From Verrucomicrobiota bacterium (GTDB lineage: Bacteria > Verrucomicrobiota > Verrucomicrobiia > JABWAM01), in contig JACQHZ010000387.1 in NCBI GenBank assembly GCA_016198745.1, positions 1-53,869 of the forward strand: 53,869 nucleotides of DNA. Reading direction: 5' to 3'. Below the pieces are notes generated by a model. It was not told the DNA's origin, searched no databases, and was given only the letters and a program-made list of their open reading frames with translations. The position numbers were made by a program, and so were the translations under genes. Below, piece after piece: positions 2,830 through 20,047 of this stretch; within the stretch, counting starts at the first letter, position 1; the number at the start of each line of letters is the position of its first letter.

Positions 2830-3855
2830 CTACAGCGCAAACATCCGCCACGGATCGCGATCGGGGTGGGAGAAACAAAACCCGGCCTTGCTGCCGGACG
2901 AATAAAAGATCGCGGCGAATTCGGTCTCGTACTTGAGCGGGTCGCTGTCGCCGTAACGGCTGACGGCTCCGGGCGGATCGGTGTGCGCGAGCGTCTGACG
3001 CAGCAAGGCAACGGTTGGCTCGCGCCCGCGCGTGAGACGCTCCATGGCGGCAAAGCGGTCGGTGGACTCGGCGAGCACGGGCGGGTTGTTGATGCGATAA
3101 GCAGACATTTCGGTGGTGCATGAAAAATTGGCGCAGAAGATCGGTTCGCCCTTGCTCCAACGCACGCCTTGCACGCTGCCCGCTTTTTCCACAATCGCCG
3201 CCGCACCCGCGCGGTCCACGAGGGGAATGTTCGCGCCCCATCGCGGCACGGTGAGAGTCTGCAACAACGCGACCGCCTCCCGGACGGTCGCGGCGCGGGA
3301 GAGCGCATGACGATTCACGACGTGCGGCGACAGGGCCTCCGCCGGCGCGGGCACATCCGCCGCGCAACTCGATCCGCCGATGGCCAGCCCTGCTTCATTG
3401 ACGCCGCCGCCGCACCAAACCGTGCCGGGAAAAGATGAACCAAGGAACGCCATGCCGCCTGCAGGTCGGAAGACGCGTACGCCCGAATGATGTCCCTCGT
3501 GGACGGGCAGGTCATTCGTCTTGGCAAGCAGCGGCCCGTCGGGCGTGCGCGGAAAGATGATGTTGGTGCAACCCTCCTTCGGCTCGCGCAGCACAGCGTA
3601 GAAGTTCATCAGGTAAATCCAGCGAAACGGGACGCCCGATCCGTCGGCGATGCCCTGGACCTCCTCAATCAATTCGGGGCAGTGTCGTTCCGTGCAACGG
3701 AGGTGTTGTTCGCGGGCGCGTTGGAACTTCGCTTCGTCCCAGTGGCGGAATCCCTTCGTCAGATAATCGAGCATCGAGCCGATCTGCAGCGCCGTGGCCC
3801 GTCCGAACTGGACGCCCATTTCATAGTGCGAACCGCTGGTTTCAACGTAAAACAT
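2830..3855 (-). CDS. C45 family Ntn-hydrolase (acyl-CoA:6-APA acyltransferase-like peptidase)
   Basis: GSHYEMGVQFG, EEVQGIADG, G-C-T autoproteolytic nucleophile (EGCTNII), GVNEAGLAIG; ATG at 3855 preceded by AAGGAG. Confidence 0.9.
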   Translation of the reverse strand: MFYVETSGSHYEMGVQFGRATALQIGSMLDYLTKGFRHWDEAKFQRAREQHLRCTERHCPELIEEVQGIADGSGVPFRWIYLMNFYAVLREPKEGCTNIIFPRTPDGPLLAKTNDLPVHEGHHSGVRVFRPAGGMAFLGSSFPGTVWCGGGVNEAGLAIGGSSCAADVPAPAEALSPHVVNRHALSRAATVREAVALLQTLTVPRWGANIPLVDRAGAAAIVEKAGSVQGVRWSKGEPIFCANFSCTTEMSAYRINNPPVLAESTDRFAAMERLTRGREPTVALLRQTLAHTDPPGAVSRYGDSDPLKYETEFAAIFYSSGSKAGFCFSHPDRDPWRMFAL

Positions 3856-3869
3856 GGTTTTCTCCTTTA

Positions 3870-3953
3870 ATCCGTCTCGAACCAAAACGCCAGCACCGCG
3901 GTATCATGGCTGATCTGCACTTGAATCCTGGCCTCGCGCGAGTTGTTTTGGAA
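3870..3953 (-). pseudogene. Duplicated 3' end of the GH42-like gene (14844-16910)
   Basis: 84 bp with 7 mismatches to 14853-14936; translates FQNNSREARIQVQISHDTAVLAFWFETD* versus FQNNSSEARIQVQIGHDTAALAFWFEMDMV*. Confidence 0.9.
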
Positions 3954-3954
3954 C

Positions 3955-4050
3955 GTGCTCCACGGCAATGTGGCGTCCATCAGCCAGATGAAAGATAAAA
4001 GGCCGAAACGGCTGTGCGACATATAAATTGTGAACCTCTTGAATGGTCAT
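3955..4050 (-). pseudogene. Truncated small hypothetical protein (QPFRPF..HLADGR family)
   Basis: MTIQEVHNLYVAQPFRPFIFHLADGRHIAVEH resembles the N-terminus of a small PVC protein family; cut exactly where the duplicated segment begins. Confidence 0.55.
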
Positions 4051-4188
4051 TCCGGGAAACTTACCGTCCGATTGGAAATTTGGCAAGTCCTGAGCCTGTC
4101 GAAGCGGCCTTGAGAGATCGAGCCGAACCAACCTCTGCAGGCGACGCTTTGCCGCGCTACCTGCGTCGTTCTTTTTTCCTATCAGAAG

Positions 4189-4208
4189 TTGTAATCCAGA
4201 TTGACAAC
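4189..4208 (+). promoter_or_regulatory. Putative GntR operator overlapping a TTGACA -35 element
   Basis: TTGTAA-tccag-ATTGACAAC near-palindrome; the same motif recurs at 5327-5346. Confidence 0.55.
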
Positions 4209-4243
4209 CTGGGGCGGAAGCCGCATCCTCGAGTTTCCATCGC

Positions 4244-5332
4244 ATGGACATTCCGCAACGCTCATCCCTGGTCCCTCAACTGGTGGAAATCCTCCGTCGT
4301 GCTCTGCGGGCCGGCAAGTGGACGGAACAGCTCCCGGGCGAGCACAACCTGTGCAATCAACTGCAGGTCAGTCGCCCGATCCTTCGCAAAGCCCTGGCGA
4401 TCCTCGCCCAGGAGAGGCATCTTCGCGCCGAACATGGCTCCGGCTGGAAAATCCTCACGGTTCCGCGCTTGCGCGGCGAACCGGTCAGCCCCCCCCGCAT
4501 CATCATCCTCTGCTTTGTGCCGCCTGATGAGATCTCCCACTTCAACCTTTTCGTCCTGGATCGCCTTCAGGACCGCCTGCATCAGGCGGGCTGCCAGGTC
4601 GAAATTCATGCCGGCTCCCAGTACGCCTCACAGAACCATCGCCGTTCCCTGCAGAAATTGCTGAACGAAGCGCGCGCAAGCCACTGGCTTCTTGTCGGTC
4701 CACCCCTGGAAGTTCAACAGTGGTTCCTCGATCGCAAACTTCTGGTCTTCATCACCCTCACTTCCTATCAGAGCATATCTCTGCCGTCCCTCCGCATGAA
4801 CGAACACGCCATTTACCACCACGCCGTGGGCATGCTCGTGGCAAAAGGGCATCGGCGAATCGCGTGGCTGGCCCCCCGACGGCTGAGCGAAGGCAAGGAG
4901 GACCTCACCCGGGGATTCTGGGAAGGAGTCGAACTTTTCCGAAAAAAGCCGGGCATTTCCGCCCGCGTCACCTTGCATTCCGGCACGGTTGCCAGCATCC
5001 GAGCAAGTCTGGATTCCCTCTTCAAATCTCCATCTCCCCCAACCGGCCTTCTCGTCTCCCGCCCGAACCACGTCATGGCAGCCGTCACCCACCTGATCTA
5101 TCGCGACATCCGCGTTCCCCGGGACGTCTCGGTTGTATGCATCGGGTATGAACCCTTTCTTGAAAACATGACACCCTCCATCGCGCACTACGCCATTGAT
5201 CGCCAGGCCTACGCGCGCAAGCTTTGCCGCATGGTTCTCCAATGGGTGGCGACGGGGCGCGGGTCCTTGGAGGGGGGGAGCGTAACGGCTCATTTTCACG
5301 AGGGAGAGAGCCTGGGACGGCGAAATTTGTAA
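4244..5332 (+). CDS. Transcriptional regulator, GntR wHTH fused to LacI-type sugar-binding domain
   Basis: LPGEHNLCNQLQVSRPILRKAL HTH; C-terminal GHRRIAWL..PTGLLV..RVPRDVSVVCI. Confidence 0.9.
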   Translation: MDIPQRSSLVPQLVEILRRALRAGKWTEQLPGEHNLCNQLQVSRPILRKALAILAQERHLRAEHGSGWKILTVPRLRGEPVSPPRIIILCFVPPDEISHFNLFVLDRLQDRLHQAGCQVEIHAGSQYASQNHRRSLQKLLNEARASHWLLVGPPLEVQQWFLDRKLLVFITLTSYQSISLPSLRMNEHAIYHHAVGMLVAKGHRRIAWLAPRRLSEGKEDLTRGFWEGVELFRKKPGISARVTLHSGTVASIRASLDSLFKSPSPPTGLLVSRPNHVMAAVTHLIYRDIRVPRDVSVVCIGYEPFLENMTPSIAHYAIDRQAYARKLCRMVLQWVATGRGSLEGGSVTAHFHEGESLGRRNL

Positions 5333-5346
5333 AGTCAATTGACAAC
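5327..5346 (+). promoter_or_regulatory. Second putative GntR operator/-35 upstream of prepilin operon
   Basis: TTGTAA-agtca-ATTGACAAC, same spacing as 4189-4208. Confidence 0.55.
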
Positions 5347-5420
5347 TGGTATTCCCTTTCCTTCAACGTCTTGTGATGCGAAATTACGAAGGCGGAAGGA
5401 ATCAAGGTGGAAAGAGGCAT

Positions 5421-5520
5421 GGTTCAAAGTTCAACGGTTCAGCGGTTCATCCCACCAAGGCGGGAAACTCAGGCTGAAAACTGCCAACCGTTGAACCGTG
5501 AACTTGGAACCGTTGAACCA
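5421..5520. repeat. Inverted 7-8-mer tandem arrays (GGTTCAA / TTGAACC) enclosing a short palindrome
   Basis: ggttcaa agttcaa cggttcag cggttca ... aaccgttg aaccgtg aacttgg aaccgttg aacc. Confidence 0.8.
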
Positions 5521-5536
5521 TGTCGAAAGACATCGC

Positions 5537-6310
5537 ATGCAAACCTCAGGCATCCAGAATCGTCAGGGTTTTACCCTTATCGAACTATTGGTCGTGGTGG
5601 CCATCATCAGCATCTTGGCCGCTCTGTTGTTGCCGGGACTCAAGAACGCCCGCGAACAGGCGCGTTCGATCAAATGTCTTGCCAATCTAAAGCAGATGGG
5701 GACGGCCGCCTTCCTGTACGCCGATGACAACAATGGCAAAACCATCGGGTTGGGAGGCGTCTGGTGGACCGCAGGACAGGACGGCGTGATCGTCGCGCCT
5801 GGTTCCAGACCGGCAAAATGGCTGGACCTTCTCTTTCCTTACGTCGGCAACAAGATCGAAGTCATGGAATGTCCGTCTTCGCAGGTTCTCCGCAGCACCC
5901 AGATGCCTGGCTATCCTCCCCGCAAATACGCAGTGGGCTATCTGATGAATATCCAAGCAGGAGGATATCCCGGCGGAAACGGTTACCCTCTCACCGTCAT
6001 CAATCGTCCGGAAGAGAAAGTCTGGTTTGCGGATAGTGCGTGGGGAGGAGTGGGGCAAGCGACAACCCTCTACGGTCCCTGGCAGGACGCTTGGGCGCCG
6101 GTTTCCTGCTTCTGGGAAGGGAACGCAAGCCAGATTCGACCCATCTCCAAGCGTCACCGTGGCGGAAGCAATCTGCTATTCTTCGACGGGCATGCGGCCT
6201 GGATGCTCTATTCCCAGGTGATGCCGATAGGCAATCAGTGGGACCCGCTTTATAACAAGCATTGGGATCCGGATGAAGACTACAACATCGAGACTCCCGC
6301 CAGCCCGTAG
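5537..6310 (+). CDS. Prepilin-type N-terminal cleavage/methylation protein with H-X9-DG domain (DUF1559-like)
   Basis: QG|[46 protein letters not shown]. Confidence 0.93.
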
Positions 6311-6389
6311 CTTGAATCGGTTGGCGCTCATCGCGTCTTTCGCATCGCTCCGATCACTTCTTCAATTGGATTAATTTCCGCCCTTTTTT

Positions 6390-6418
6390 GCGAGTCGCCC
6401 GGATGGAGGGCGACTTGC
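6390..6418 (+). other. Intergenic stem-loop after prepilin gene
   Basis: gcgagtcgccc-ggatgga-gggcgacttgc, 11-bp stem; no downstream U-tract. Confidence 0.5.
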
Positions 6419-6457
6419 GGCGGCGTTCTCCGAATCAGCGTGAATCACTCTTTTTCC

Positions 6458-9400
6458 ATGAACATCGGTTTGACCCATGCGATGATCGCGTTCCTGATCA
6501 CGGTCGCGGGTTGGTCAACAGCGATGGGAGCGTCCCAACCCCTGCTCCAGGAGCAGTCGTTCCTGCAACCCACCATGTCCGAGAGCGGACTGGCGCTTTG
6601 GGATGCCGCCAGCCGTGTCGAGGTGTTCGCCGACCGGCAGGTGTACTTTGCCGATGACGTGGACGGACAATTCCTTGTCGCCTTTCTCGGCAAAGTCAAA
6701 ACCGAGGACGCGGACAATCGGACCATTCAACTGGAATTGAAGGACGCAAAGTCCGGAAAGCCGCTCGAAACCAAGAGGGTGACTCCGGTGCTTGGACCGA
6801 AGCTGCCTGTGATTATCCCGACCATGGAGTTGAAGCCCGGTCAGTATGAATTGACCGCGACGCTCAAAGACGAGCTTGGCAACATCGTTGCACAGGCTTC
6901 GAGAAAGTTCGAGCGATCCACGCAAACAGTAAAAGGATCGAAGTTCCCGTCGAAAGGCATTCCGATCTTCGCCCACGCGCAGTCGCATGTTCCCGATGGC
7001 GAATGGCCGATTACAACAGGCGTGCCGATGCCGAAGGGGGCGCTCAAAAATATCGATGGCCTCGCGTTGCTTGAAAACGGCAATCCCGTGCCGTCGCAGT
7101 TCATCGTGCGCGCCACATGGTCGCCGAATGGTTGGGTCAAATGGGTGGGCGTTGATTTCATTGCGCGCTACGACAAGGGCAATCGCCCTTCCCATGGCGA
7201 TTCTGCCCTCAAACCGCGCGAGTATCGGCTGGTGAAAACCGTTGCTGCAGACGCCGCCAAGGGCGTGATAAATCACGCCCCTACGATTTTGGTCGGGGAA
7301 AGTCCGGACAAGATTGTCGTCAACACGGGCGTCATTCGGTTCGAGATCAACCCCAAACAATTCGCAGGCATCGAGAAGGCATGGATCGGCAACGATCTGA
7401 TCGTTGACGGTCTCGGCGGTTCCTTCGTGGTGGACGACAAGGGCAATCGCTTCGATTCAGCCTACAGCAAGGAGGCGCATGTGGTCGTGGAGGAAAACGG
7501 ACCTGTTCAGACCACCATCGCGGCAAAGGGTTGGTACTGCCTGCCCCGCCCTGGCGGTGGCAACGAAGCGGGCGAGCCGCTTTGCAAGTTCGTGATTCGA
7601 TTCAAGGCTTACGCGGGACAACCCTTCGTCAGCGTCTCGCACTTCACGATCAACACGATCCCCGACCAGTATGTGACCACAAAACTTGCCGATGTCGGTT
7701 TCGAGGTGGTTCCCAGCGGACGCGTTGACAAGTGGCACTTTGGTTTTGACGGGAAAAGCCAGGAGGGCGCCGCCGTCAGCAAACCCACTTCGATCTTTCT
7801 GCATCAGGATCGCGGCGACCATTTTCGGTTGATGGCCGACGACACGAAGCTCGCGGAGGGCAAACGCTCGGACGGTTGGATGACAGCGCAAGCAACCAAC
7901 GGCTCGATCACCTACTTCCTGCGCGACGTTTACCAGAAGTTTCCGAAGGAACTGGAACTCGATCTCTCACCCGACGCGGGACGCTCGAAGCTGGTGGCGC
8001 ATTTCTGGCCCAAGCACGGGCATAAGGCGTTTACCGAAGAGGAAGAACTCGCGCGCGATCAGATCTATAAAGTCCGCTACGCGCATCAAGGCAAGCTGCT
8101 GAACTTTCTGATTCCCGACAACTATCACAAGCGACTGGAACAATTCAACAGGGAGGAACCTTGGGCGGGCGACCATGAATTGATGATCGTGGATGCGGCG
8201 AAAAACCTTTCGCAGATGCAGGCTGCCTCCGGGCAGGGAACCGTCATCAGCAGCGATCTCATCATCCGCTTTGACGCCAAACCACGGGCGTCGGACGCGT
8301 TGCGCGCGCAGGCGGGTCTCATTCAACAATCACCGCATGCGTTGCCGGACCCGAAGTGGAGTTGTGCCACCGATGTTTTGGGGCCGGTCGCTCCGCGTGA
8401 TCCTGAGAAATTCGGTTCCGCGGAAAAGTTGTTGGATACGGCTTACTCGTTCTACCGCCGCGCCATCATCGAGGCAGGCGACGAATACGGCTTATGGATT
8501 TACGGCGGCGTGCATAGCAGTTGGGAGTCGAACAAAAACCAGGCCCAACTCACGCGCGTCTGGCAATCAAGCCATTATCAAAACGTCTTTCAAGCCTGGC
8601 TGCTCTATTTCCGCAGCGGGTTGCCGGAGCATTTCGAGTGGGCGCGGATGCATTCCAGCCAGTATCTTGACGTTGGCGTGTGCAACTATCTCGCCTACCC
8701 GAAAGGTGCGCACAGCTACTCGCACATCGGCGACATCGGCGGCGGCATCAACCATTGCAAAGGTTTCATGCCGTGGACAGGCCGCTCGGGCGTCTGGGGT
8801 CACTGGATTGATATTGAAAATTACTTTATCCGCTACTATCTGACGGGCGACCGCCGCGGTCTCGACATGGCGGAGACATGGATTCAGAACCACTACAAGA
8901 TGCGATCGTCGAATGCATTGAACCTGCCCACGTCGGGCGACGGCTACCAGGACCCGAAGAAGCTCGCTGAGATCAGCGTCTATCTCAAGGCGCATCCCGA
9001 TTTGAAGAAAGAACAGTATCCACCGTGGATCCGTGACGAACAGGCCAAGCCGCCACAATTCAACCCGCGCGAGGTGTTTGTCCCGCTTGGCGAGATGACG
9101 CAGTATTACCAGGCCACGTGGAATCCGCAGGCGCTGATATATCTCAACGATCTGGCGGAATATCTCAACCCGCCATTCGAGCGCACGAACAGCCCCAGCC
9201 TGTCCGCGTTCGGCAAACACTGGCAGGATTGGTATTATGACCTCACGCGTGACCCGCGCGTGATCAACCGTATCAAGGAACACCTTGAATCCGAGCGCCG
9301 CAAGAATCGGCACCGGGGTTACGACAGCTTCGCTGCGTTCCTGTACCACACCACCGGCGACACGACGTTTCTCAAGGCCGCCATTTCGGGTGTCTATAGC

Positions 9401-10420
9401 GGGACTCTGAATATTTACGAATGCGAGGGCGACCGATACGATGGTTACTGTCTGGCGCACAGCAACCCCGAGGCGATGTTGCTGGGGCGACTTCCATACT
9501 TTCTCCATGCCGTGGACGCGGCGGGACTCAAGTTCGAACGCAACGACGAGACGACCGTGGTCCCCACTCGCAACGGACGTTGCGACATCCACGACAAAGG
9601 GCTTATGCCGCCGCGCGGCTGGTCCAACACGGGCGTGACCATCCTTTCGCAGGCGAGCAAGCCCACGAAGATCGCGGTGTCCATCCAAAGCTACGGTCAG
9701 GCGCGCGGCTTTTATCAACTCTTTTACGGCTTTCCCGAACTGGATGTGTTCAAGCGTCCGAACGCCGGGAAGCTCGTGGAGGAACAGCATGCGGCGTCAC
9801 TCGTGAAATTCGAAGCGCAGAACCTGTTCAAGGACCCACCGGAGTGCCGCAACTATGGGGTCCATTTCGGCGGCCTGGACCAGACTTTCCCTTACATCGA
9901 GTGTCCGCGCCACGATCCGTCCAAGCTCGCGTATCGTCTCGAACACGGCGGCACCCACATCGAGCTGCCTGTGTTTCTGGATGCCGAAACCCAGAAGCCG
10001 CTGTCACAGGTCGCGGTGATCGCCCGGACGACTTATGCAAACGGGAAAGTCCAGGAGGCGTCCTTTTCATCGGGGGGCGTGACGGACGTGTACTTCCGTC
10101 CGCTTGACGACAAAGCGCGCATCCAACTCAACCTGAAGTCTGCCAAGGGTGGTTACACGGCGCCCACAACATTCCGAATCTGGGATGCGCGCGGCCAATC
10201 GGTCATGGATTCGAGCGTTTTCATGGCGGGCAAGCGCAGCGAGATCTCTGTCACCCTTGATCCAGGCAAAAACCCAATTCCTTGGCGGCTCATGATGGCG
10301 TCGTACGGCGACAATCAGCTTACCTTCACCGGCGCGGACGAACTCTTTTTCGCCCGCAAGCCCGACGAGTTCAACCAGATCCTTTCGCAGATTCCCATTT
10401 ATGCCGAGCCGGCAAAATAA
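6458..10420 (+). CDS. Large secreted protein, PcRGLX/YetA-like (PL26 exo-rhamnogalacturonan lyase-related fold)
   Basis: Signal peptide; WPITTGVPMPKG..W.PNGWVKW; IVVNTGVIRFEI beta-sandwich; YGLWIYGG toroid start. Start may be 6440 or 6458. Confidence 0.7.
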   Translation: MNIGLTHAMIAFLITVAGWSTAMGASQPLLQEQSFLQPTMSESGLALWDAASRVEVFADRQVYFADDVDGQFLVAFLGKVKTEDADNRTIQLELKDAKSGKPLETKRVTPVLGPKLPVIIPTMELKPGQYELTATLKDELGNIVAQASRKFERSTQTVKGSKFPSKGIPIFAHAQSHVPDGEWPITTGVPMPKGALKNIDGLALLENGNPVPSQFIVRATWSPNGWVKWVGVDFIARYDKGNRPSHGDSALKPREYRLVKTVAADAAKGVINHAPTILVGESPDKIVVNTGVIRFEINPKQFAGIEKAWIGNDLIVDGLGGSFVVDDKGNRFDSAYSKEAHVVVEENGPVQTTIAAKGWYCLPRPGGGNEAGEPLCKFVIRFKAYAGQPFVSVSHFTINTIPDQYVTTKLADVGFEVVPSGRVDKWHFGFDGKSQEGAAVSKPTSIFLHQDRGDHFRLMADDTKLAEGKRSDGWMTAQATNGSITYFLRDVYQKFPKELELDLSPDAGRSKLVAHFWPKHGHKAFTEEEELARDQIYKVRYAHQGKLLNFLIPDNYHKRLEQFNREEPWAGDHELMIVDAAKNLSQMQAASGQGTVISSDLIIRFDAKPRASDALRAQAGLIQQSPHALPDPKWSCATDVLGPVAPRDPEKFGSAEKLLDTAYSFYRRAIIEAGDEYGLWIYGGVHSSWESNKNQAQLTRVWQSSHYQNVFQAWLLYFRSGLPEHFEWARMHSSQYLDVGVCNYLAYPKGAHSYSHIGDIGGGINHCKGFMPWTGRSGVWGHWIDIENYFIRYYLTGDRRGLDMAETWIQNHYKMRSSNALNLPTSGDGYQDPKKLAEISVYLKAHPDLKKEQYPPWIRDEQAKPPQFNPREVFVPLGEMTQYYQATWNPQALIYLNDLAEYLNPPFERTNSPSLSAFGKHWQDWYYDLTRDPRVINRIKEHLESERRKNRHRGYDSFAAFLYHTTGDTTFLKAAISGVYSGTLNIYECEGDRYDGYCLAHSNPEAMLLGRLPYFLHAVDAAGLKFERNDETTVVPTRNGRCDIHDKGLMPPRGWSNTGVTILSQASKPTKIAVSIQSYGQARGFYQLFYGFPELDVFKRPNAGKLVEEQHAASLVKFEAQNLFKDPPECRNYGVHFGGLDQTFPYIECPRHDPSKLAYRLEHGGTHIELPVFLDAETQKPLSQVAVIARTTYANGKVQEASFSSGGVTDVYFRPLDDKARIQLNLKSAKGGYTAPTTFRIWDARGQSVMDSSVFMAGKRSEISVTLDPGKNPIPWRLMMASYGDNQLTFTGADELFFARKPDEFNQILSQIPIYAEPAK

Positions 10421-10428
10421 AACATTCC

Positions 10429-12873
10429 ATGAAAGCATCTTCAACACACAATCCATTTTCGACTCACGAACGCATTCGGATCGGGTTTGACGAAACGTCC
10501 AATGGGTGTCCCATCCATTTTGCTGATGCCCGCTTGCCCAAAGTGAGTCTCTTTTCCTTGATGGCGGTGCTGTACCAAACCAAGGAAGGCGGGTCCTATG
10601 CCGAGGCATGGCCCGGCGGGAAACGTCCCGATAACGGTGTTGGATTCGAGTTGGTCTCCCGGAAGCAATCAAACAAGGGCGGGATTGCGAACCTGCGCAT
10701 CCAGACCAGAACCGAACATTTTCGTGTGACGAAGGAATTTACGCTCGACGCCAAACGTCCGTGGCTGCAGGCGCGTTACACGCTGGTTTCGACCGGCGCG
10801 CCGCTCAAAGCGTTCGCCACCCAGCTTCAAGCGCCCGCTCTTTTTTATGGTCCTGACCTGGAAAATCCGCTCCATGCCGACCTCATTGACTTTTCATTTG
10901 GTCGCATCCTGCCCAACGGATTTGAAGCGCCGCCCTATCTGACCTTTTGGGTCAAGGGACGCAAATCGGGATTTCTGCTCTGGACGGAAAATCGGGAAGC
11001 CATGCGAAGAATTTTCCCCCGCGATGAGCGGGTCGAGGGAGTGCATCCCTCCCAAAGCTGTGGAAGCAGCGACACGACAAATGCCGAATGGGACGAATCT
11101 TATTTTCGAAAACCCTGCGTTTGGGAATTTTATCTTTGGCCAATCCGATCCGGCGAGTGGCGTGATGCAACCCGCCAGCTCGCGTCCATGAAGTTTTGCA
11201 GTTGGAATCCGCGCCAGATTTTTTTCAGCGGCAGCGCTGAAAAAACACCGGGCGGACCTTGCCTTTCCGCCAACGAGTTGGCGGCAGCCAATCGTCAGGC
11301 GGTTGCCAAAGGTCCTGCGCCCAAGCGTTGGTGGCACATTCGCAGCCCGTCGGGAAACTCACTGCTTTATGCGCAAGACCCCGCGGGGACTGCCCCATTG
11401 AAGGTTCGACACGGATTGAAGGGGTGGTTTCGCGTCAAAATCCGCGTCCATGGTGGTTCCGGGGTCATGTTTCAAGGCCCGGATGCGCCGTTCCCCATTC
11501 CTTTCAGTCATGATGCCACCACTCCTGGATGGGCCGGTGATCATCCATTCCATAACGCCTTGCTCCAACGCCCCAAGGAAATCGAATTGGATGCCGGCGC
11601 CTGGAATCTGCAGGAAAAAGCGTTTGAGTTACACCCTTATCCCACGATGTACGCTCAATCCATCATCAGCCAGGTGCGCTTCGAACCTGTCCATGTCGCC
11701 ACGCAGTCGGGAGTTGCTGTATCGCCGCTGGCAGCGGCTCCTACACCTGAGCAGTTACCAAAAATTGAGCTTGCGGGCATTGCGGATGCCCCGGATATCG
11801 CCTTTGCTGACAACACCCTCAGCGATCGCCCCTACCGGGCCAATGTGGCGGAGCACGCGCGCCTGGGTTTTCGGAGGCTCTATTGGCGCGCAGACGGCCA
11901 GTGCTGCGATTTTCACACCAAAGTCGGCACGGTGGGCTATGCGGATCGATGCGCCCACGCCGTTTTCACTCCGATTGCCATTTTCTTTGGTTTGGTTCTG
12001 CGTAAATACAACCTTCTCGCCGTTGCCGTCGAAGAAGCGCGCCGTTGCGGCATGGAGATTTATGGCTACATGCGGATCAACGGTTTTGGGGGCAATGTCA
12101 TCCCAAAATTTTACATGGATCACCCTGAACTGCACGACGAAAGGGAAATCGGCGGCAATTCTCCCCGCATGTGTTTTTATCTGCCTGAATTTCGAAAGTG
12201 GAAGGTCGAGATTGCCCGCGAAGTGGTCCGGCACGGGGTGGATGGACTGCTGATCGATCTGACGCGCTCACCGCCCATGATCGAATATCATCCCGCTGTG
12301 GTCAGGGCTTATGAAGGAAAGCATGGATGCCTGCCTCCTCGAAATCTGAAACGGGGTTACGTCAGTTATGGAATTCATCCGTTGGAAACGGGTGAGGAAT
12401 GGATCCGCTGGTGGAAATTTCGCGCGGAAGGTTTTACCCAATTTGGACGCGAATTGCGCGCAATGCTGGCCGAGGAAGGCAAACCGCAACTGCCCATTCA
12501 TTTGCAAGTGCGCCCCAAAATGGCGTTGTTCGACGGGCTGGATCTTCCGGTCTGGGTGAATGAAGGACTGGCGGATCTCCTCAACGTCTGGCCGACCACC
12601 GATTTTGAAGTGCCCAACGAGATCTTTGAAACGACGCGCGGCAAGATGCCCGTGCGCTGTACCGTGGTGGCCACTGGCGGTGATCGCGTTCCCGAATCCG
12701 ACGATCGGATGAGGCGGGTTCTTAAAGATCCGCGTTATCAGGGACTGACGATCTACGAAAGCAACGGGGCCGTCTGGTCGCCTCACTGGCGCAGCGCCAT
12801 CGAACGCATCGTCCACGTAACTACTCAGGTTCACGGTCCAAGGGTTCACGGTTCAGCGGTTGGAAAAGCATGA
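10429..12873 (+). CDS. Protein with C-terminal GHL10-like glycoside hydrolase TIM barrel
   Basis: LAVAVEEARRCGMEIYGYMRIN..HPE..LPEFRKWKVEIAREVVRHGVDGLLID; ATG 8 nt after upstream stop; no signal peptide. Confidence 0.7.
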   Translation: MKASSTHNPFSTHERIRIGFDETSNGCPIHFADARLPKVSLFSLMAVLYQTKEGGSYAEAWPGGKRPDNGVGFELVSRKQSNKGGIANLRIQTRTEHFRVTKEFTLDAKRPWLQARYTLVSTGAPLKAFATQLQAPALFYGPDLENPLHADLIDFSFGRILPNGFEAPPYLTFWVKGRKSGFLLWTENREAMRRIFPRDERVEGVHPSQSCGSSDTTNAEWDESYFRKPCVWEFYLWPIRSGEWRDATRQLASMKFCSWNPRQIFFSGSAEKTPGGPCLSANELAAANRQAVAKGPAPKRWWHIRSPSGNSLLYAQDPAGTAPLKVRHGLKGWFRVKIRVHGGSGVMFQGPDAPFPIPFSHDATTPGWAGDHPFHNALLQRPKEIELDAGAWNLQEKAFELHPYPTMYAQSIISQVRFEPVHVATQSGVAVSPLAAAPTPEQLPKIELAGIADAPDIAFADNTLSDRPYRANVAEHARLGFRRLYWRADGQCCDFHTKVGTVGYADRCAHAVFTPIAIFFGLVLRKYNLLAVAVEEARRCGMEIYGYMRINGFGGNVIPKFYMDHPELHDEREIGGNSPRMCFYLPEFRKWKVEIAREVVRHGVDGLLIDLTRSPPMIEYHPAVVRAYEGKHGCLPPRNLKRGYVSYGIHPLETGEEWIRWWKFRAEGFTQFGRELRAMLAEEGKPQLPIHLQVRPKMALFDGLDLPVWVNEGLADLLNVWPTTDFEVPNEIFETTRGKMPVRCTVVATGGDRVPESDDRMRRVLKDPRYQGLTIYESNGAVWSPHWRSAIERIVHVTTQVHGPRVHGSAVGKA

Positions 12874-13007
12874 AGACTCGTCTCGGCGAAGCCCATCCGA
12901 TTACGCCAAAGCTTGCGTTGCGACGGCAAGCAGGGGAGACTGGCTCGAGCGTTTTATCTTCCAACCCTTGAACCGTTGAACTGTGAACCTGACAACCTGA
13001 GCCGTTA
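12817..13007. mobile_element. MITE-like element with GTAACTACTCAG-type terminal inverted repeats and internal heptamer arrays
   Basis: Left gtaactactcag (12817-12828), right ctgagccgtta (12997-13007); ggttcac/gtgaacc arrays inside. Confidence 0.65.
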
Positions 13008-14086
13008 TGAAATTCCATCGCTACTCGCCGGAAGGAAATGTTCCGCTGTTGAGTTTTGAAGGCAGTTCCTTTGAATGCGGCCAACAACTTGGTCTCGCCT
13101 GGCAACATTCCTTGAAATTGAACGCCGCCGCAGCCAAGGGCCGCTGGATTCCCTGGTGGTGGAAAGGTCGCGGCGGCATCGCGGCGGCCATGGTCGCGCG
13201 CGTGGCGCCCCATCTCGTCGATCTCATCCGCGGCATGGCGGCGGGGGCCGGTATTGATGAATCCCTTTGCGGTTATTCCCCCATTGCCGCGCCTCTTGGG
13301 CCGGAGCACCCTGGAATGGGTGGACTGGAAAGCTGCACCTCTTTCGCCATTCATCCGGACCAAACGCTGGACGGACACGCGATCTCAGGCCAGACCAAGG
13401 ACACGGGTTTTCACCGGACTTCTTTTTATCAGGTGTTGCGTCTGAAACCAAACGACGCGCCGGGTCATCTCACCCTGACTTATCCCGGCGAACTTTTGGG
13501 TCACGGCTTCGCGCAAACGGGGATGAGCCTCTTCCGCAATTCCCTGTTTGCCACCCCTCGAAAAAAAAGCGCGGCCAAACTGTCCTTTGACGCCTTTGGC
13601 CTGCTCGCGCTTTTTTCCCGGCGATTGGACGATGTCATCGAAATGGCCCGACGTCATCGTGTGCAAACGGTGGCCCATATCACCGTGGCAGAAGCCTCCG
13701 GCCAAACCGCAGGTTTCGAGTTTTGCGACGGAAGAATGCAAATCATTCCGGCGCGAAAAGGGATTTATGCACATGCCAATCACGTGGTTGGCGGAAAACT
13801 CAAGCCCCTGGAAAACGCCGGGGATCGAAAAACATCCGCAGCAGGCGCCTCCTCTCGCCGTCAAAAGCGGTTATATGAATTGATGGAACAAAACCGTGGC
13901 CGCCTGACGCCGCAGATCATGCTTCAGAACCTGTCGGACCATGAGAATTATCCGCTCTCCATCTGCGCCCACCGCGACAAGGAATCTCACACCACGGCGT
14001 GCGTTATCGCGGAACCGACGCGTGGGCTTCTCCACGTGACGCGCGGCGCGCCCTGCCAAAACTGGCCGATCACCTACCGCCTCTGA
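13007..14086 (+). CDS. C45 family Ntn-hydrolase
   Basis: GSSFECGQQLG, IRGMAAGAG, S-C-T nucleophile (ESCTSFAI), HANH, VTRGAPC. Confidence 0.88.
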   Translation: MKFHRYSPEGNVPLLSFEGSSFECGQQLGLAWQHSLKLNAAAAKGRWIPWWWKGRGGIAAAMVARVAPHLVDLIRGMAAGAGIDESLCGYSPIAAPLGPEHPGMGGLESCTSFAIHPDQTLDGHAISGQTKDTGFHRTSFYQVLRLKPNDAPGHLTLTYPGELLGHGFAQTGMSLFRNSLFATPRKKSAAKLSFDAFGLLALFSRRLDDVIEMARRHRVQTVAHITVAEASGQTAGFEFCDGRMQIIPARKGIYAHANHVVGGKLKPLENAGDRKTSAAGASSRRQKRLYELMEQNRGRLTPQIMLQNLSDHENYPLSICAHRDKESHTTACVIAEPTRGLLHVTRGAPCQNWPITYRL

Positions 14087-14130
14087 ATCGTAAAAGTGTC
14101 CGTAAAAGTGTAAAAGAGCGTGTCCGAAAA

Positions 14131-14265
14131 TCAGGTGCGGGTTTCGTCCCAGTGGCGGAACCCCTTCGTCAGATAATCGAGCATCGAGCCGATCTGCAGC
14201 GCCGTGGCCCGTCCGAACTGGACGCCCATCTCGTAATGCGAACCGCTCGTTTCAACGTAAAACAT
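14131..14265 (-). pseudogene. Truncated duplicate of the 5' end of the C45 gene at 2830-3855
   Basis: 14143-14269 matches 3733-3859 with 5 mismatches in 127 bp; first 41 aa identical, then TRT*. Confidence 0.92.
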
Positions 14266-14274
14266 GGTTCTTCC

Positions 14275-14847
14275 GTAACTGCTCAGGTTCAAGATTCAGA
14301 GTTGTTTTCCCGCGAAAAATTCCTTTCCCTTTTCTCATATTTTTCTGTGCTGAATAGTTACAATGGGCGCCGTTGCCTCAGACGGATGGCAAGCCACTTC
14401 GGCACGCTCAGGACTTGCCCGCCAAAGGCGGGCTTGTTCCGAGTGCAATCGAGGGGCAAACCGTCAGGTCCCACTGTTGCCACTCTTTCAAATTGCGCAA
14501 TTTCCTGTGACGATCGTTACAAGAATCTGTCACTTTCAAATAACTACTTGGGTTCAGGGGGTTGCGGCGTGCGACAACTTTCCGGCCCGCGCTTCGTAGC
14601 CCGGCAATTTCGGCGGACGAAGGAGCGTCATTTTCTTTTCCATCTGGAGTTTTGGTGTGTGGCACAGCCCCGAAAGCTTTCGGGGCTGTGTTCCAACGGC
14701 AAAAGCACAGCCGGGGGCGGCTGTGCCACATCTTCTAATGCTTCAATATCCTCCAATCGTTTAATCTTCATATTTGCCCAACTTCTGAACCTTTGAACCA
14801 TGAACCGTGAACCCCCGCTTTTTCGAGGGCAGGCTCTGAGTAGTTAC
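14275..14847. mobile_element. Composite of MITE-like elements and REP palindromes
   Basis: TIR-like gtaactgctcag 14275, ctgaatagttac 14350, ataactacttgg 14540, ctgagtagttac 14836; heptamers; hairpins gcccgcc-aaa-ggcgggc and cacagccccgaaagctttcggggctgtg. Confidence 0.65.
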
Positions 14848-16910
14848 ACCATATCCATCTCGAACCAGAATGCCAGCGCCGCGGTATCATGGCCGATTTG
14901 CACTTGAATCCTGGCCTCGCTCGAGTTGTTTTGGAATGGAACATCGCTTCCCGAAAGCAACTCCGTCACCCGTTTCAGGCGTTTCCCCTTTGGAACCTGG
15001 AGCGTCATCGGAAACGCGGTCGGCTCTTTGAAATAGGAGGTCACCAAGCCCAGATAACCACCCTCGCCTTCCAGCGGAAAAAATTCGAACGTTGACACGT
15101 CCCGCTGATCGAATGGTCGCAATCGTTTCATTGGCACCTCCGGGGGCCAGTTCTCAACGCGCAACGCCGGCTTCGTTCCCGCCACCCACTCGACCAGCAG
15201 CGGCAAAAGGGTGTGCGCGCGATTCAGGACGGTCGTGTGGAAGGCCGGGCTCTCCGCCGTGCGCGTCGGAAAGCCGGCGAGCCACACCATGCGACCCCTT
15301 CCCTTTAGCGAAAGGATTGCGGGGCTGTCCTCAAACGAGGCCAAAACCTCCGCGTCGGACGGCGCGTCCGCGATCACGCAATGGCGCAGCGCGAAGATCG
15401 GCACGTGCGCGCCGCCCAGGTAGCGTTGCGCGCCTGCTTCGTCCATGGTTTCAAGCGTTGCGAGAGCGGGATGCTTGGCCGTCAATTGGAAGGGTCGTTG
15501 CTTCGGCGCTTCCTCGCGAATGCGAATGCCGAATTGTTCCTCGAGAAATGACCTTGTCCGAGGCGCGCCCGTCTCAGTCGCCGAACCGAGATTGCCCAGA
15601 ATGACCAGGTTACCGCCGCGGTCCATGTAAGCCCGCAGCGCGGCGGCCTGATGATCCGATAAACAATCGAGTTCAGGCAGGACGATGACGCGGAATTCAG
15701 ACAGTGACCGCTCATCCATGCGACGATCAGGAAGAAAAGCGTAGGGAATGCCCTTGTGACGCAACGCCTCCGCGACCGGCATGACGCGCGTGCCGTCGTA
15801 CGAGTCGGGCACGGTCGCGGGCAATGGGCGCGCGAAAATTTCCGTCTGCGCGCCGTGGACGATGGCGGCGTGCTTGAGCGGTTGGACCTGTGCAAAATAG
15901 CGGTCAAGTTTGAAACAGGCTTCGTAGGTTTCCTGCACCGGAGATGCTTTCTGAAAGTGGTAGCAGTACGGCGTAACCTGGTTGATGCCGCACGCGAGCG
16001 GTACGAGCGCCGACCAATAGCCATCCTCTCGACCCAGCGGACGCGTGAACGTCGGGTGCGAAAAGCCCTGCACGACCATCTCCGCCTCTTTCTCGTCGGG
16101 CACGATGCCGCGCAGGAAACGGCACCATTCGCTCAAATAAACCTCGGCGGGATTGAAGTGGCGCTCGTGAAACGTGTAGTACGGGTCGGTGCTGAGGCCG
16201 TCGAGGCGCTCGATCATGCCCGATAAATCCACGCCCGTGCTCCACGGGTTGAGCCACAGGTCGCTGGCGGGCGATGCTTGAAAGACCGCCTTGATGCGCG
16301 GGTTGACGGCATGAATGACCGCGGCCATCTCGCCGTGAACGCAATTCCATCGGTCCATTTTCCATTTCAGATAGGCGCGCCAACACGCGTCGCGCCAATC
16401 TTCCGCCTTTGGTTCGGTTTTGAGCGGCATCTCGCCGCCGATCTCGCGCGCATAATCCGCGCGGCAGGTCTTGCAGTAGCAGCCGGAGAGCAGGAACGCT
16501 TCGTCGTTGAGCGAGAGGCGCGTCACCCCCGGCAACCCGGCCAGGCGCTGCAGAAACGCGATGTATCGCGCTTTGAACTTCCGATTGAACGGACAACCCC
16601 AGCTCGACGCGCTCAGCCCATCCTGGTCGCGCACGTCCTCGGCGGTGACGAGCCGCTGATCGGGATGCTCGGCCAGGTACGCTTCATCGTACTTCATATA
16701 ACCCGTCATCAGCCAGACATCGAGCTTCAATGCGGCGGCGCGCCGGCAAAACGCAGCAACGAAATCCGCGTCGCGTTGGAACACGAAAATCCCAGCCGCG
16801 CGATACCCCTTCGCCGCGATCTCAGGCAGGAGATCGAACAGTTTCTCCGGCCGGCCTTCCGCATCATGCAGGAACGCGGCGCGGTGGATGAGGCGCGGGA
16901 TGGGTCGCAT
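14844..16910 (-). CDS. GH42/GHL-like glycoside hydrolase with beta-galactosidase trimerisation-type (class I GATase-like) domain
   Basis: HPDQR..WGCPFN..LNDE..GCYCKTC; C-terminal LSEFRVIVLPELDCLSD..YMDRGGNLVILG; start MRPIPRL. Confidence 0.7.
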   Translation of the reverse strand: MRPIPRLIHRAAFLHDAEGRPEKLFDLLPEIAAKGYRAAGIFVFQRDADFVAAFCRRAAALKLDVWLMTGYMKYDEAYLAEHPDQRLVTAEDVRDQDGLSASSWGCPFNRKFKARYIAFLQRLAGLPGVTRLSLNDEAFLLSGCYCKTCRADYAREIGGEMPLKTEPKAEDWRDACWRAYLKWKMDRWNCVHGEMAAVIHAVNPRIKAVFQASPASDLWLNPWSTGVDLSGMIERLDGLSTDPYYTFHERHFNPAEVYLSEWCRFLRGIVPDEKEAEMVVQGFSHPTFTRPLGREDGYWSALVPLACGINQVTPYCYHFQKASPVQETYEACFKLDRYFAQVQPLKHAAIVHGAQTEIFARPLPATVPDSYDGTRVMPVAEALRHKGIPYAFLPDRRMDERSLSEFRVIVLPELDCLSDHQAAALRAYMDRGGNLVILGNLGSATETGAPRTRSFLEEQFGIRIREEAPKQRPFQLTAKHPALATLETMDEAGAQRYLGGAHVPIFALRHCVIADAPSDAEVLASFEDSPAILSLKGRGRMVWLAGFPTRTAESPAFHTTVLNRAHTLLPLLVEWVAGTKPALRVENWPPEVPMKRLRPFDQRDVSTFEFFPLEGEGGYLGLVTSYFKEPTAFPMTLQVPKGKRLKRVTELLSGSDVPFQNNSSEARIQVQIGHDTAALAFWFEMDMV

Positions 16911-16981: not shown

Positions 16982-17197
16982 AGACCCATCCTAACCACCA
17001 ACCGAATCGCAGTTCAACAGCAAGGTGACGCAAAGAAACAACGATTCTTACGGTCGCTTCCGCGCGCCAGGTCGCGCGCAACACGCTCCAAGAATTCGCG
17101 GCCGCGGGTGATCTTTACGCAGCGGACATTCTGAAGACATGGCCCCAAGAACAACCCTGAAGCACGGATGAACACCTGATCGGTGGCCTTTCTCCCA

Positions 17198-17533
17198 TTA
17201 TCCATGCAATTCGAGACATCCCATGCCAGCATCCTTTTCAAATGCCAGAAGGGTGGAGGCGTTCTTCCGCAGCAATCTTTCGATGTCACGCACAGGACAA
17301 TTCCCGCATCTCAACCAGATCAATTTGGGCGGATGACCGCGCAACAAACTGATGTCGTAAAAGTCCGCATCCAGGGTCACCATGACAAACCCATTCGCTT
17401 TGGCATATTTCCAAATGGTGTGGTCGTCGGCTGTGCGCATGCCCAGCAGACGGATATGATTCGATTCGGGAAAAACGTCCGCCAACCGTTTGACCAATTG
17501 ATGGCTGAGGTTGTGGTCAAACAGCAGTTTCAT
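17198..17533 (-). CDS. DUF5615 PIN-like toxin (VapC45-like)
   Basis: MKLLFDHNLS..DDHTIWKYA..VTLDADF..GHPPKLIWLRCGN. Confidence 0.88.
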   Translation of the reverse strand: MKLLFDHNLSHQLVKRLADVFPESNHIRLLGMRTADDHTIWKYAKANGFVMVTLDADFYDISLLRGHPPKLIWLRCGNCPVRDIERLLRKNASTLLAFEKDAGMGCLELHG

Positions 17534-17762
17534 GCGGCGAGAAGGCAATCATGGAATGTCTCTCCTTGTCCGCCGCATATGCCAGACAAGCCTGGATGTC
17601 TTCCTCGGTCAAATCTGGATATTCCTCAATGATTTGCTGATGGCTCATGTTAGCAGCCAGCCAGCCAAGCACATCCCCAACGGTAATCCGCATCCTACGA
17701 ATGCAAGGCTTTCCGCCCCGTTTGCCAGGTTCGATGGTGATGATTTTGTGATAATCGGTCAT
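17517..17762 (-). CDS. DUF433 antitoxin
   Basis: ITIEPGKRGGKPCIRRMRITVGDVL..YPDLTEEDIQACLAYAA; overlaps the toxin start. Confidence 0.92.
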   Translation of the reverse strand: MTDYHKIITIEPGKRGGKPCIRRMRITVGDVLGWLAANMSHQQIIEEYPDLTEEDIQACLAYAADKERHSMIAFSPHETAV

Positions 17763-18880: not shown

Positions 18881-19148
18881 TCCTTGCTCCGAGCATCCGA
18901 GGCCATCCACTAAGAAAACGGGGACTGACGAGTTTGAGGGATTGTCAGAGCCTGGCGCGATAAAAGCGCATCCGGCGAACTCGCAGACGGAATTCAGGCG
19001 CTTCCTGTGCAATCAGGATTTAGTCTTTGAAGCTTGAGCTGGCGGCGAATGTGCGCTAGGTTTCCGTCGTGACTCAAAACCCAATTTGTGATTTTCATCT
19101 CGACATCCTGAACCGCGCGCCGGTATGGGTCGGCACACAGATGAAATC

Positions 19149-19988: not shown

Positions 19989-20047
19989 ATCCAGCGATGT
20001 CCTGGAAAGCTACTGCTCCGGAGTGGACTGCTGAGAAAGACACGGCC

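What the first reader, a model, noticed from the sequence alone, without database searches (positions are those of the whole stretch)
14131..14269. All five differences between the C45 stub and the intact C45 gene are synonymous
Seen: over 127 bp the differences are ACC/ACG, CAC/CAT, TAT/TAC, GAA/GAG and GGA/GGG, all silent third positions. A stub decaying after duplication would gain mostly non-synonymous changes. Inference: both copies were under purifying selection as full genes, so the insert arrived with a different allele from a related strain and displaced the resident one. Two strain haplotypes being co-assembled is the alternative.
Basis: partly seen in the sequence, partly recalled or inferred. 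Interest (0 to 1): 0.7.

Follow-up and report, generated by a model that had tools for sequence, protein, structure and literature searches.

The report
Gene stub beside an inserted operon
A 41-codon leftover of an enzyme gene sits 10 kb from its intact copy on the far side of an inserted sugar-degradation operon, and its purely silent differences hint that the two copies came from slightly different relatives, but this is an ordinary rearrangement scar in an uncultured groundwater bacterium.

Summary
Observation confirmed. Window 3733-3859 and 14143-14269 are a 127-bp direct repeat (4 bp upstream of the ATG plus codons 1-41 of a C45 gene). The 5 differences are all silent third-position changes.

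New here: a second repeat, 3870-3953 vs 14853-14936 (84 bp, 7 differences: 3 silent, 4 replacing). It is the 3' end of the neighbouring 688-aa GH-like gene. GH->C45 is a conserved adjacent pair in 3 other loci. So a ~221-bp piece spanning the operon junction is duplicated around a 10,189-bp cargo (regulator, DUF1559 pseudopilin, PcRGLX-like protein, unknown protein, second C45). One intact copy of each gene is left.

dS is the same in both repeats (0.22, 0.21). Five of five silent has nominal p 0.009-0.024 under post-duplication decay, and 0.04-0.07 when both repeats are pooled. Eight comparable stub pairs in this genome are 48% silent. Divergence before truncation is favoured, not proven.

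One new junction (14142|14143) is bridged by an independently assembled contig, which weakens the misassembly reading. No full-length allele matching the stub exists in any collection searched.

The earlier scan found a similar 213-bp scar elsewhere in this genome. Ordinary rearrangement scar; low interest.

The parts
118..2793 (-). Hybrid sensor histidine kinase/response regulator, downstream neighbour of the intact C45 gene
   Evidence: Pfam CHASE3, HisKA, HATPase_c, Response_reg, Hpt
2830..3855 (-). Intact C45 gene (C45-1, 341 aa)
   Evidence: Pfam PF03417 43.4 bits vs cut-off 23.2. NCBIfam NF040521 C45_proenzyme 157.4 bits vs cut-off 85. Invariant Cys96 in a 15-sequence alignment.
3733..3859 (-). 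Left copy of the 127-bp repeat: codons 1-41 of C45-1 plus 4 bp upstream
3860..3869 (-). Compact ancestral-type junction: TAA stop of the GH remnant, then an AAAGGAG ribosome-binding site for C45-1
   Evidence: Minus-strand reading. A similar TAAAGGAGG lies upstream of the 76% orthologue in L009.
3870..3953 (-). Remnant of the last 28 codons of the GH-like gene (left copy of the 84-bp repeat)
   Evidence: 92% identical to 14853-14936. The 7 differences are 3 silent and 4 replacing.
3954..14142 (.). Cargo, 10,189 bp, bracketed by the two composite repeats
   Evidence: Boundaries come from where homology ends. Composition is typical of the genome. No integrase or transposase domain was found.
4244..5332 (+). 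GntR-HTH / periplasmic-binding-domain regulator, divergent from C45-1
   Evidence: Pfam GntR and Peripla_BP_3
5498..6310 (+). DUF1559 pseudopilin-like protein
   Evidence: Pfam N_methyl and SBP_bac_10. NCBIfam prepilin and H-X9-DG domains.
6440..10420 (+). PcRGLX-like large protein (1326 aa)
   Evidence: Pfam PcRGLX_2nd. A paralogue at 43% lies on contig C75, and a 67% homologue lies in 1 of 300 other class genomes.
10282..12873 (+). Unknown protein (up to 863 aa, start uncertain)
   Evidence: No Pfam or NCBIfam family
13007..14086 (+). Second, distant C45 gene (C45-2, 359 aa), last gene of the cargo
   Evidence: PF03417, NF040521 121.9 bits. Only 26% identity over 112 aa to C45-1.
14131..14269 (-). 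C45 stub: 127-bp repeat copy (14143-14269) with its short ORF (41 shared codons + TRT + stop, 14131-14265)
   Evidence: It lacks Cys96 and the whole Pfam-matched region. Junction 14142|14143 is bridged by an X1 contig.
14270..14852 (.). 583-bp spacer that takes the place of the 10-bp compact junction. 14270-14650 is nearly unique; 14650-14850 is made of high-copy intergenic repeats.
   Evidence: No Rfam family.
14844..16910 (-). Intact GH-like gene (688 aa as called in the protein collection; longest ORF runs to 17084). Its last 28 full codons before the final three (14853-14936) are the right copy of the 84-bp repeat.
   Evidence: Weak Pfam Glyco_hydro_42M and GLMA_2nd hits below cut-off. 58 homologues. 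Lies directly upstream of the C45 orthologue in L009, L011 and L023.

Best explanation
This is a real insertion-duplication scar. The ancestral locus was a compact operon, GH-like gene then C45 gene, as in other bacteria.

A 10.2-kb glycan-utilisation module (regulator, pseudopilin, two large enzymes, a second C45) now lies inside that junction. It is bracketed by two copies of a ~221-bp piece made of C45 codons 1-41, the junction and the last 28 codons of GH. One copy continues into a whole C45 gene and the other into a whole GH gene, so both genes survive and each leaves a dead stub.

The differences between the copies are mostly inherited allelic differences. They arose while both versions were working genes in lineages about 5% apart, and recombination with a close relative brought them together. 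Two routes fit. In one, the cargo entered by a single crossover of a circular molecule, or by homology-facilitated illegitimate recombination. In the other, a later ordinary homologous import overwrote the intact gene but not the 127-bp stub.

Shown: the repeats, their coding phase, the junction geometry, the conserved synteny and one bridged junction. Inferred: the order of events, the donor and the recombination route.
For: - 5 of 5 differences in 41 codons are silent. Nominal p is 0.009-0.013 under decay and 0.024 against the genome's own stub background.
- Silent-site divergence is equal in the two repeats (dS 0.219 and 0.208). Replacement divergence is 0 in the conserved C45 N-terminus and 0.062 in the GH tail. 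That tail is poorly conserved among 58 homologues.
- GH lies directly upstream of C45, in the same direction, in L009, L011 and L023. Both repeat copies therefore carry pieces of one ancestral junction.
- The left copy keeps the TAA-AAAGGAG junction also seen in L009.
- The geometry equals that of single-crossover integrants, which gave 109-950 bp duplications in E. coli (PMC3240628, passages read).
- A 560-bp X1 contig matches 13632-14191 with no difference and ends 30 nt into the 68-bp exact core, as a k=31 graph would.
- A co-occurring relative exists. The X2 contig at 6607-6990 has 22 differences; of the 18 listed, 13 are third positions.
- The cargo has typical composition: 24th percentile of 371 genome chunks.
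Against: - Only five sites carry the argument.
- The companion repeat has 4 replacing changes of 7. Pooled, 8 of 12 silent gives p 0.04-0.07.
- The MAG holds many other gene-fragment repeats, 54 direct pairs. One all-silent case among them is not very unlikely.
- The stub copy has lost the conserved ribosome-binding site and acquired a 583-bp spacer. This suggests it has been dead for some time, yet it shows no replacing change.
- No full-length allele with the stub's letters was found.
- The genome is a 74%-complete MAG with 522 contigs from samples that hold a close relative.
- X1 and X2 showed no counted contig over 3820-3826.
Confidence: 0.45

Rival explanations
1. Ordinary decay. One event inserted the cargo and duplicated ~221 bp. 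The copies were identical at first and have drifted since. The five silent changes in the C45 part are a chance outcome, and the 583-bp spacer entered the dead copy later.
For: - The GH remnant shows the expected mix, 3 silent and 4 replacing.
- The stub copy lost its ribosome-binding site and gained repeat-rich spacer, as junk DNA would.
- Eight comparable pairs in the genome show 30 silent and 33 replacing codons, i.e. decay is the norm here.
- With about nine such pairs, one 5-of-5 case has a family-wise chance near 0.1-0.2.
- A single event explains both stubs.
Against: - Nominal p is 0.009-0.024 for 5 of 5.
- With dS about 0.2, roughly 10 replacing changes would be expected in a neutral 41-codon stub (my estimate site counts). 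None is seen.
- The four replacing changes all fall in the 84-bp repeat (about p 0.03 by site share, my arithmetic).
Confidence: 0.27
2. Assembly artefact. Two co-occurring haplotypes about 5% apart were threaded into one contig, so stub and intact gene are not in one genome. For example, one population has the left junction and the other the right junction, joined through the shared cargo.
For: - The MAG has 522 contigs, 74% completeness and 3.1% contamination.
- A relative about 94% identical that carries the cargo gene is present in run X2.
- Several other repeat pairs touch contig ends.
- X1 and X2 had no counted contig over 3820-3826, and only contigs, no read pairs, could be laid.
Against: - The non-homologous junction 14142|14143 cannot arise from a shared k-mer. 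It is present in an independently assembled 560-bp contig at depth 7.7 with no mismatch.
- An X4 contig (3630-3780) bridges 3732|3733.
- Contig depths in X1 are similar on the left flank (5.8), in unique cargo bins (about 6-10), at the junction (7.7) and on the right flank (6.3).
- X1 contigs match the window with 0 differences in 6 of the 8 listed pieces.
Confidence: 0.13
3. Reciprocal loss of paralogues. The genome once had two full GH-C45 operons flanking the module. They diverged under selection. Then two separate deletions removed most of one GH and most of the other C45.
For: Same silent-biased pattern and equal dS. The cargo looks native in composition. The genome is rich in repeated glycan modules.
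Against: - It needs a prior 3-kb dispersed duplication plus two independent deletions that both happen to abut the cargo.
- No other close paralogue of C45-1 exists in the MAG; the next best is 27-41% identical.
Confidence: 0.1
4. The stub is still under selection, for instance as a translated 44-residue peptide or as a homology arm that lets the cargo loop out and back in through the 68-bp exact core.
For: The start codon and all 41 codons are intact with no replacement. A 68-bp exact identity tract lies between the copies.
Against: The ancestral ribosome-binding site is gone. No promoter-like site was found above chance. The stub lacks the catalytic Cys96. No joined (cargo-less) form could be seen, but contigs cannot show one.
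Confidence: 0.05

Closest known systems
Insertion-duplication by single-crossover (Campbell-type) integration of a circular molecule carrying a short homologous segment
   Same: Direct repeats of the homologous segment flank the inserted DNA. Each copy adjoins chromosome on one side and insert on the other. A segment that spans a gene junction leaves both genes whole. In E. coli conjugation such events duplicated 109-950 bp of the target (PMC3240628, passages read).
   Different: No vector, circle or donor is known here. The copies differ by 4-8% and by a 573-bp length difference in the spacer. The event is inferred from one MAG contig.
Homology-facilitated illegitimate recombination (HFIR; de Vries and Wackernagel 2002, Prudhomme 2002, Meier and Wackernagel 2003)
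   Same: One homologous anchor (the C45 and kinase side) and one non-homologous join (14142|14143) would bring in foreign DNA from a related donor. I saw these three papers only as references inside PMC5361080; their content is recalled.
   Different: HFIR as tested usually deletes recipient DNA rather than duplicating it (PMC3240628). Microhomology at the join cannot be examined without the donor.
Displacement scars at T6SS effector-immunity and Rhs loci
   Same: Incoming modules enter next to a conserved gene end and push the old copy aside, leaving orphan gene fragments. HFIR is the proposed route (PMC5361080, passages read).
   Different: Those are toxin-immunity arrays with variable 3' ends. 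Here the cargo is a metabolic operon and the stub is a 5' end.
Integrative elements that insert in a gene and carry a replacement gene end (att repeats)
   Same: Imperfect direct repeats made of a gene end, with the gene kept whole. This comparison is recalled, not tested against a named element.
   Different: No integrase, excisionase, transposase or tRNA was found in the cargo ORFs scanned, 6 with Pfam and 6 with NCBIfam. The cargo composition is native.
Earlier scan note e1-1063574: 213-bp GNAT 5' repeat bracketing a 22.7-kb operon in the same genome
   Same: Same genome and same architecture: a full gene and its 5' fragment as direct repeats around a glycan operon. I re-found it at C209 18263/40945, 91% identical.
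   Different: That pair has 8 silent and 8 replacing codons, i.e. plain decay. The present pair is all silent.

Membership tests
C45 family autoproteolytic acyltransferase/hydrolase (Pfam PF03417, NCBIfam NF040521), intact gene 2830-3855 | Whole-protein score above the curated cut-offs | tested here: met
   PF03417 43.4 bits vs 23.2. NF040521 157.4 bits vs 85, profile 1-306 of 313.
C45 family autoproteolytic acyltransferase/hydrolase, intact gene | Conserved cysteine at the expected self-cleavage and nucleophile site | tested here: met
   Cys96 is invariant in 15 of 15 aligned homologues. Its role as nucleophile is recalled from the family description, not assayed.
C45 family, stub 14143-14265 | Contains the catalytic region | tested here: not met
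   Only residues 1-41 are present, then TRT-stop. Cys96 and the Pfam-matched region 104-331 are absent.
Insertion-duplication (single-crossover) scar | Direct repeats flank the insert, and homology ends sharply at chromosome/insert borders on both copies | tested here: met
   3733-3953 vs 14143-14269 plus 14853-14936. The flanks are unrelated.
Insertion-duplication (single-crossover) scar | The duplicated segment corresponds to one contiguous ancestral sequence | tested here: met
   GH stop and C45 start are 31 nt apart in L009 (ORFs) and adjacent, same direction, in L009, L011 and L023 (3 of 10 loci with at least 2.2 kb upstream).
Insertion-duplication (single-crossover) scar | Empty site, donor or circular form observed | not testable with these tools
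   No close relative was found: 0 of 60 relatives, best homologue 76%, none in JGI metagenomes. Only contigs could be laid.
Site-specific integrative element (prophage, ICE, genomic island) | Integrase or recombinase within the bracketed DNA | tested here: not met
   No such domain in the 6 cargo ORFs scanned with Pfam or the 6 scanned with NCBIfam. Two ORFs have no family at all.
Transposon or insertion sequence | Transposase, terminal inverted repeats at the insert ends, short target duplication | tested here: not met
   No transposase. No inverted repeat at 3954/14142. The duplication is about 221 bp.
Two alleles shaped by purifying selection | Excess of silent over replacing differences relative to a decay model | tested here: inconclusive
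   The 127-bp repeat has 5 silent and 0 replacing, p 0.009-0.024. The 84-bp repeat has 3 and 4. Pooled p is 0.04-0.07.
Two alleles shaped by purifying selection | A full-length allele carrying the stub's letters exists | tested here: not met
   None in the MAG, 60 relatives, the 5.8-billion-protein collection (best 76%) or JGI metagenomes. These collections barely sample this lineage.

The most novel reading that the evidence does not exclude
Glycan-utilisation modules in this Verrucomicrobiota lineage may move between close relatives without any mobile-element machinery. A module would loop out as a circle through short gene-end repeats and re-enter by a single crossover at the matching operon junction. 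Each move would leave a stub-plus-intact pair. The silent-only stub here, the 213-bp GNAT pair and the strong excess of direct over inverted same-contig repeats (54 vs 3) would be traces of one recurrent process.
Probability: 0.12. Interest if true: 0.5.

Novelty: new member of a known kind. Interest (0 to 1): 0.22.

Why it matters
If the allelic reading holds, the stub is a small fossil of recombination between closely related uncultured groundwater Verrucomicrobiota. It would show how a whole sugar-degradation module was slotted into an operon junction without breaking either flanking gene. That is useful as a worked example and as a caution for MAG annotation. It does not reveal a new mechanism or function. 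If the pattern is chance or haplotype mixing, the stub is just a pseudogene fragment.

Tried and rejected
- **Allele tree.** Not possible. 0 of 60 relatives have an orthologue at E <= 1e-30. The best non-self proteins are 76% and 74% identical. The JGI metagenome scan gave 90 pattern matches and none confirmed.
- **Cargo elsewhere.** The PcRGLX-like protein was found in only 1 of 300 other class genomes, on a 3-kb contig, so no synteny could be read.
- **Cargo genes beside C45 orthologues.** No tblastn hit for the regulator, PcRGLX, the unknown protein or C45-2 in 16 loci.
- **Rfam on 3600-15200.** One chance-level hit (E 0.83, 22.8 bits vs 63).
- **Promoter and terminator scan.** Fewer sites than in shuffles.
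- **Mobile-element reading.** Rejected: no recombinase and no terminal repeats.
- **Polarising the changes with L009.** Not attempted. At 76% protein identity, silent sites are saturated (inference).
- **Automatic classing of all repeat pairs by stub position.** It chose non-homologous frames for several stubs, including this one. I make no claim about geometry across the genome.
- **X3 contig with the stub's letters at 3820/3823/3826.** It probably is the stub's own contig laid at both copies, so I do not count it as a third allele.
- **Cover gaps.** X1 and X2 over 3820-3826, and the X1 bin 4670-5103, had no cover. The tool states that a hole proves nothing.
- **Second metagenome scan.** Allowed but not used.

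Full report
**1.

An ungapped comparison of window 3733-3859 with 14143-14269 gives 122 of 127 identical bases. Identity collapses immediately outside both ends.

- The repeat is the 4 bases before the start codon plus codons 1-41 of a minus-strand gene (2830-3855, 341 aa).
- That gene is a clear member of the C45 autoproteolytic acyltransferase/hydrolase family: PF03417 43.4 bits against a cut-off of 23.2, and NF040521 157.4 bits against 85.
- The five differences are codon 6 ACC/ACG, 10 CAC/CAT, 11 TAT/TAC, 12 GAA/GAG and 35 GGA/GGG. All are silent third positions.
- The stub frame ends after three more codons (TRT-stop). It lacks Cys96, which is invariant in 15 aligned homologues, so it cannot be an enzyme.
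- The MAG (6.43 Mb, 522 contigs, 74% complete, 3.1% contamination) holds only these two copies. The window is one whole contig.

**2.

The repeat finder and BLAST show a second direct repeat, 3870-3953 vs 14853-14936 (84 nt, 7 differences).

- The right copy is the last 28 full codons before the final three of a 688-aa GH-like gene (14844-16910, minus strand). The left copy is a remnant sitting 10 bases upstream of the intact C45 start.
- On the minus strand the left junction reads remnant-TAA-AGGAGA-AAACC-ATG. This is a compact operon junction.
- The nearest orthologous locus, L009 (a Verrucomicrobiota MAG; C45 76% and GH 54% identical), has a similar TAAAGGAGG before its ATG.
- A tblastn of nine window proteins against 16 loci that encode C45 relatives found the GH gene directly upstream and co-directional in L009, L011 and L023. 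That is 3 of the 10 loci with at least 2.2 kb of upstream flank.
- Six C45/GH homologue pairs in the protein collection share the same longest-contig length. This is an inference of co-location only.
- The ancestral state was therefore GH then C45.

In plus-strand order the window now reads:

1. kinase
2. whole C45
3. GH remnant
4. 10,189-bp cargo (3954-14142)
5. C45 stub
6. 583-bp spacer
7. whole GH

About 221 bp spanning the junction is duplicated around the cargo. One working copy of each gene remains.

**3. The cargo**

The cargo encodes:

- a GntR-HTH/sugar-binding regulator,
- a DUF1559 pseudopilin,
- a 1326-aa PcRGLX-like protein,
- an unknown protein of up to 863 aa,
- a second C45 gene, only 26% identical to the first over 112 residues.

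This is the same regulator-pseudopilin-enzyme layout as other modules in the window. Earlier scan notes describe the same layout elsewhere in this genome.

- No integrase or transposase domain was found.
- The cargo ends carry no terminal inverted repeats.
- No Rfam family was found.
- Composition is typical: tetranucleotide distance at the 24th percentile of 371 10-kb genome chunks, GC 57.1% against 58.1%.

It is not a recognisable mobile element and not distant foreign DNA.

**4. Is the contig real here?**

Eight runs from three studies hold parts of the region. The two good holders are groundwater metagenomes kept only as Logan contigs. Laying four runs on 2500-15500 gave the following.

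For the assembly:

- A 560-bp contig of X1 (depth 7.7) matches 13632-14191 without a difference. It bridges the non-homologous junction 14142|14143 by 49 bases.
- That contig stops exactly 30 bases into the 68-bp tract that is identical in both copies. A k=31 graph would stop there if both copies are in the sample.
- A 151-bp X4 contig (3630-3780) bridges 3732|3733.
- X1 contig depths are 5.8 on the left flank, about 6-10 in unique cargo bins, and 6.3 right of the stub.

Against over-reading:

- X1 may be the source sample.
- Depth per contig is coarse.
- No contig of X1 or X2 was counted over 3820-3826.
- The junctions at 3859|3860, 3953|3954 and 14269|14270 were not among the listed pieces.
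- Contigs cannot phase the two copies.
- Run X2 also holds a contig at 6607-6990 with 22 differences. Of the 18 listed, 13 are third positions, in 17 codons of which 10 are silent. A relative about 6% apart that carries the cargo gene therefore lives in the same aquifer. It is both a possible donor and a source of assembly risk.

**5. How strong is the silent-only signal?**

Site counts:

| Repeat | Silent sites | Replacement sites | Silent changes | Replacing changes | dS | dN |
|---|---|---|---|---|---|---|
| 127-bp | 26.3 | 96.7 | 5 | 0 | 0.219 | 0 |
| 84-bp | 16.5 | 67.5 | 3 | 4 (M/T, A/V, G/S, S/R) | 0.208 | 0.062 |

Probability of 5 of 5 silent:

- 0.0004-0.002 if all changes were random.
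- 0.009-0.013 if the stub is neutral and the intact copy accepts silent changes only.
- Pooling both repeats, 8 or more of 12 silent has p 0.04-0.07.

The equal dS with unequal dN fits two versions that diverged as working genes. The C45 N-terminus is conserved (4 and 6 of 41 residues differ in the 76% and 74% homologues). The GH tail is very variable among 58 homologues.

The genome gives a sobering background. A self-BLAST found 57 same-contig repeat pairs of at least 90 bp at 85% or more, 54 direct and 3 inverted. I picked the gapless pairs in which one copy lies in an open frame of at least 150 aa and the other does not.

- There are eight besides this one, and three of them touch a contig end.
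- They total 30 silent and 33 replacing codons.
- Against that 48%, 5 of 5 has p 0.024. With several such pairs, one all-silent case is not remote.

The stub copy has also lost the conserved ribosome-binding site. It gained a 583-bp spacer whose right 200 bp are high-copy intergenic repeats, with up to 78 other matches in the MAG. That looks like a sequence that has been dead for a while.

**6. Mechanism**

The geometry is that of insertion-duplication. A segment spanning a gene junction is present on both sides of the insert, so both genes stay whole.

- In E. coli conjugation experiments, single crossovers of circular molecules produced such duplications of 109-950 bp. They were more frequent than true homology-facilitated illegitimate recombination (PMC3240628, passages read).
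- Displacement of resident gene ends by incoming modules, leaving orphan fragments, has been proposed for T6SS and Rhs loci with the same mechanisms in mind (PMC5361080, passages read).
- The silent differences can then be explained in two ways. Either the donor was a relative about 5% apart at the time of insertion, or a later ordinary homologous import replaced the intact gene's allele and left the 127-bp stub untouched.
- I cannot separate these two routes, nor fully exclude plain decay (0.27), haplotype mixing (0.13) or reciprocal loss of paralogues (0.10).

**7. Verdict**

The purifying-selection inference is reasonable but rests on five sites.

The fuller picture is a junction duplication around a native-looking glycan module.

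It is a new instance of a known kind of rearrangement scar, and its interest is low. Raw-read or long-read phasing, and the locus of the co-occurring relative, would settle it.

Noticed in passing
window 5413-5522, 12800-13000, 14650-14850: High-copy intergenic repeats built of GGTTCA-like units in inverted arrays. They have up to 44, 101 and 78 other BLAST matches in the MAG. Summed contig depth in X1 is 65-145 against about 6 for unique DNA, and many contig joints run between these places. No Rfam family matched.
   Followed up: partly
window 4082-4108 and 14393-14419: A 27-nt inverted repeat (24 of 27 complementary), one arm in the cargo's left end and one in the 583-bp spacer. Its 14-nt core occurs only at these two places in the MAG. 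A 25-nt match lies on contig C216. Meaning unknown.
   Followed up: partly
window 14844-16910 with 2830-3855; L009 4512-7716; L011; L023: A GH-like protein of about 690 aa with no family above cut-off lies directly upstream of a C45 acyl-hydrolase in Verrucomicrobiota and Armatimonadota loci. The pairing suggests a shared, uncharacterised step in amino-sugar or acylated-glycan breakdown.
   Followed up: partly
whole MAG G000 (for example C209 18263/40945, C209 64940/75127, C223 1491/12389, C96 23662/25087, C88 18386/19013): There are 57 same-contig repeat pairs of at least 90 bp at 85% or more, 54 direct and 3 inverted. Many pair a long ORF with a short fragment of its 5' or 3' end, 0.6-23 kb away. 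Several touch contig ends, so some may be assembly effects.
   Followed up: partly
window 6607-6990: A contig of run X2 differs at 22 of 384 bases, mostly at third codon positions of the PcRGLX-like gene. A relative about 6% apart therefore shares the aquifer and carries this cargo gene.
   Followed up: partly
window 17085-20870, 18494-18880 and 26825-27331: A 3.8-kb stretch holds only short ORFs, among them a PIN-domain gene, and a HEPN-domain gene lies further on. These are possible toxin-antitoxin remnants between glycan operons.
   Followed up: no
window 3904-4251 (minus strand): A 115-codon ORF runs from the cargo's left end across the 3953|3954 junction into the GH remnant, in another frame. 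It has no family in Pfam or NCBIfam and is probably spurious.
   Followed up: partly
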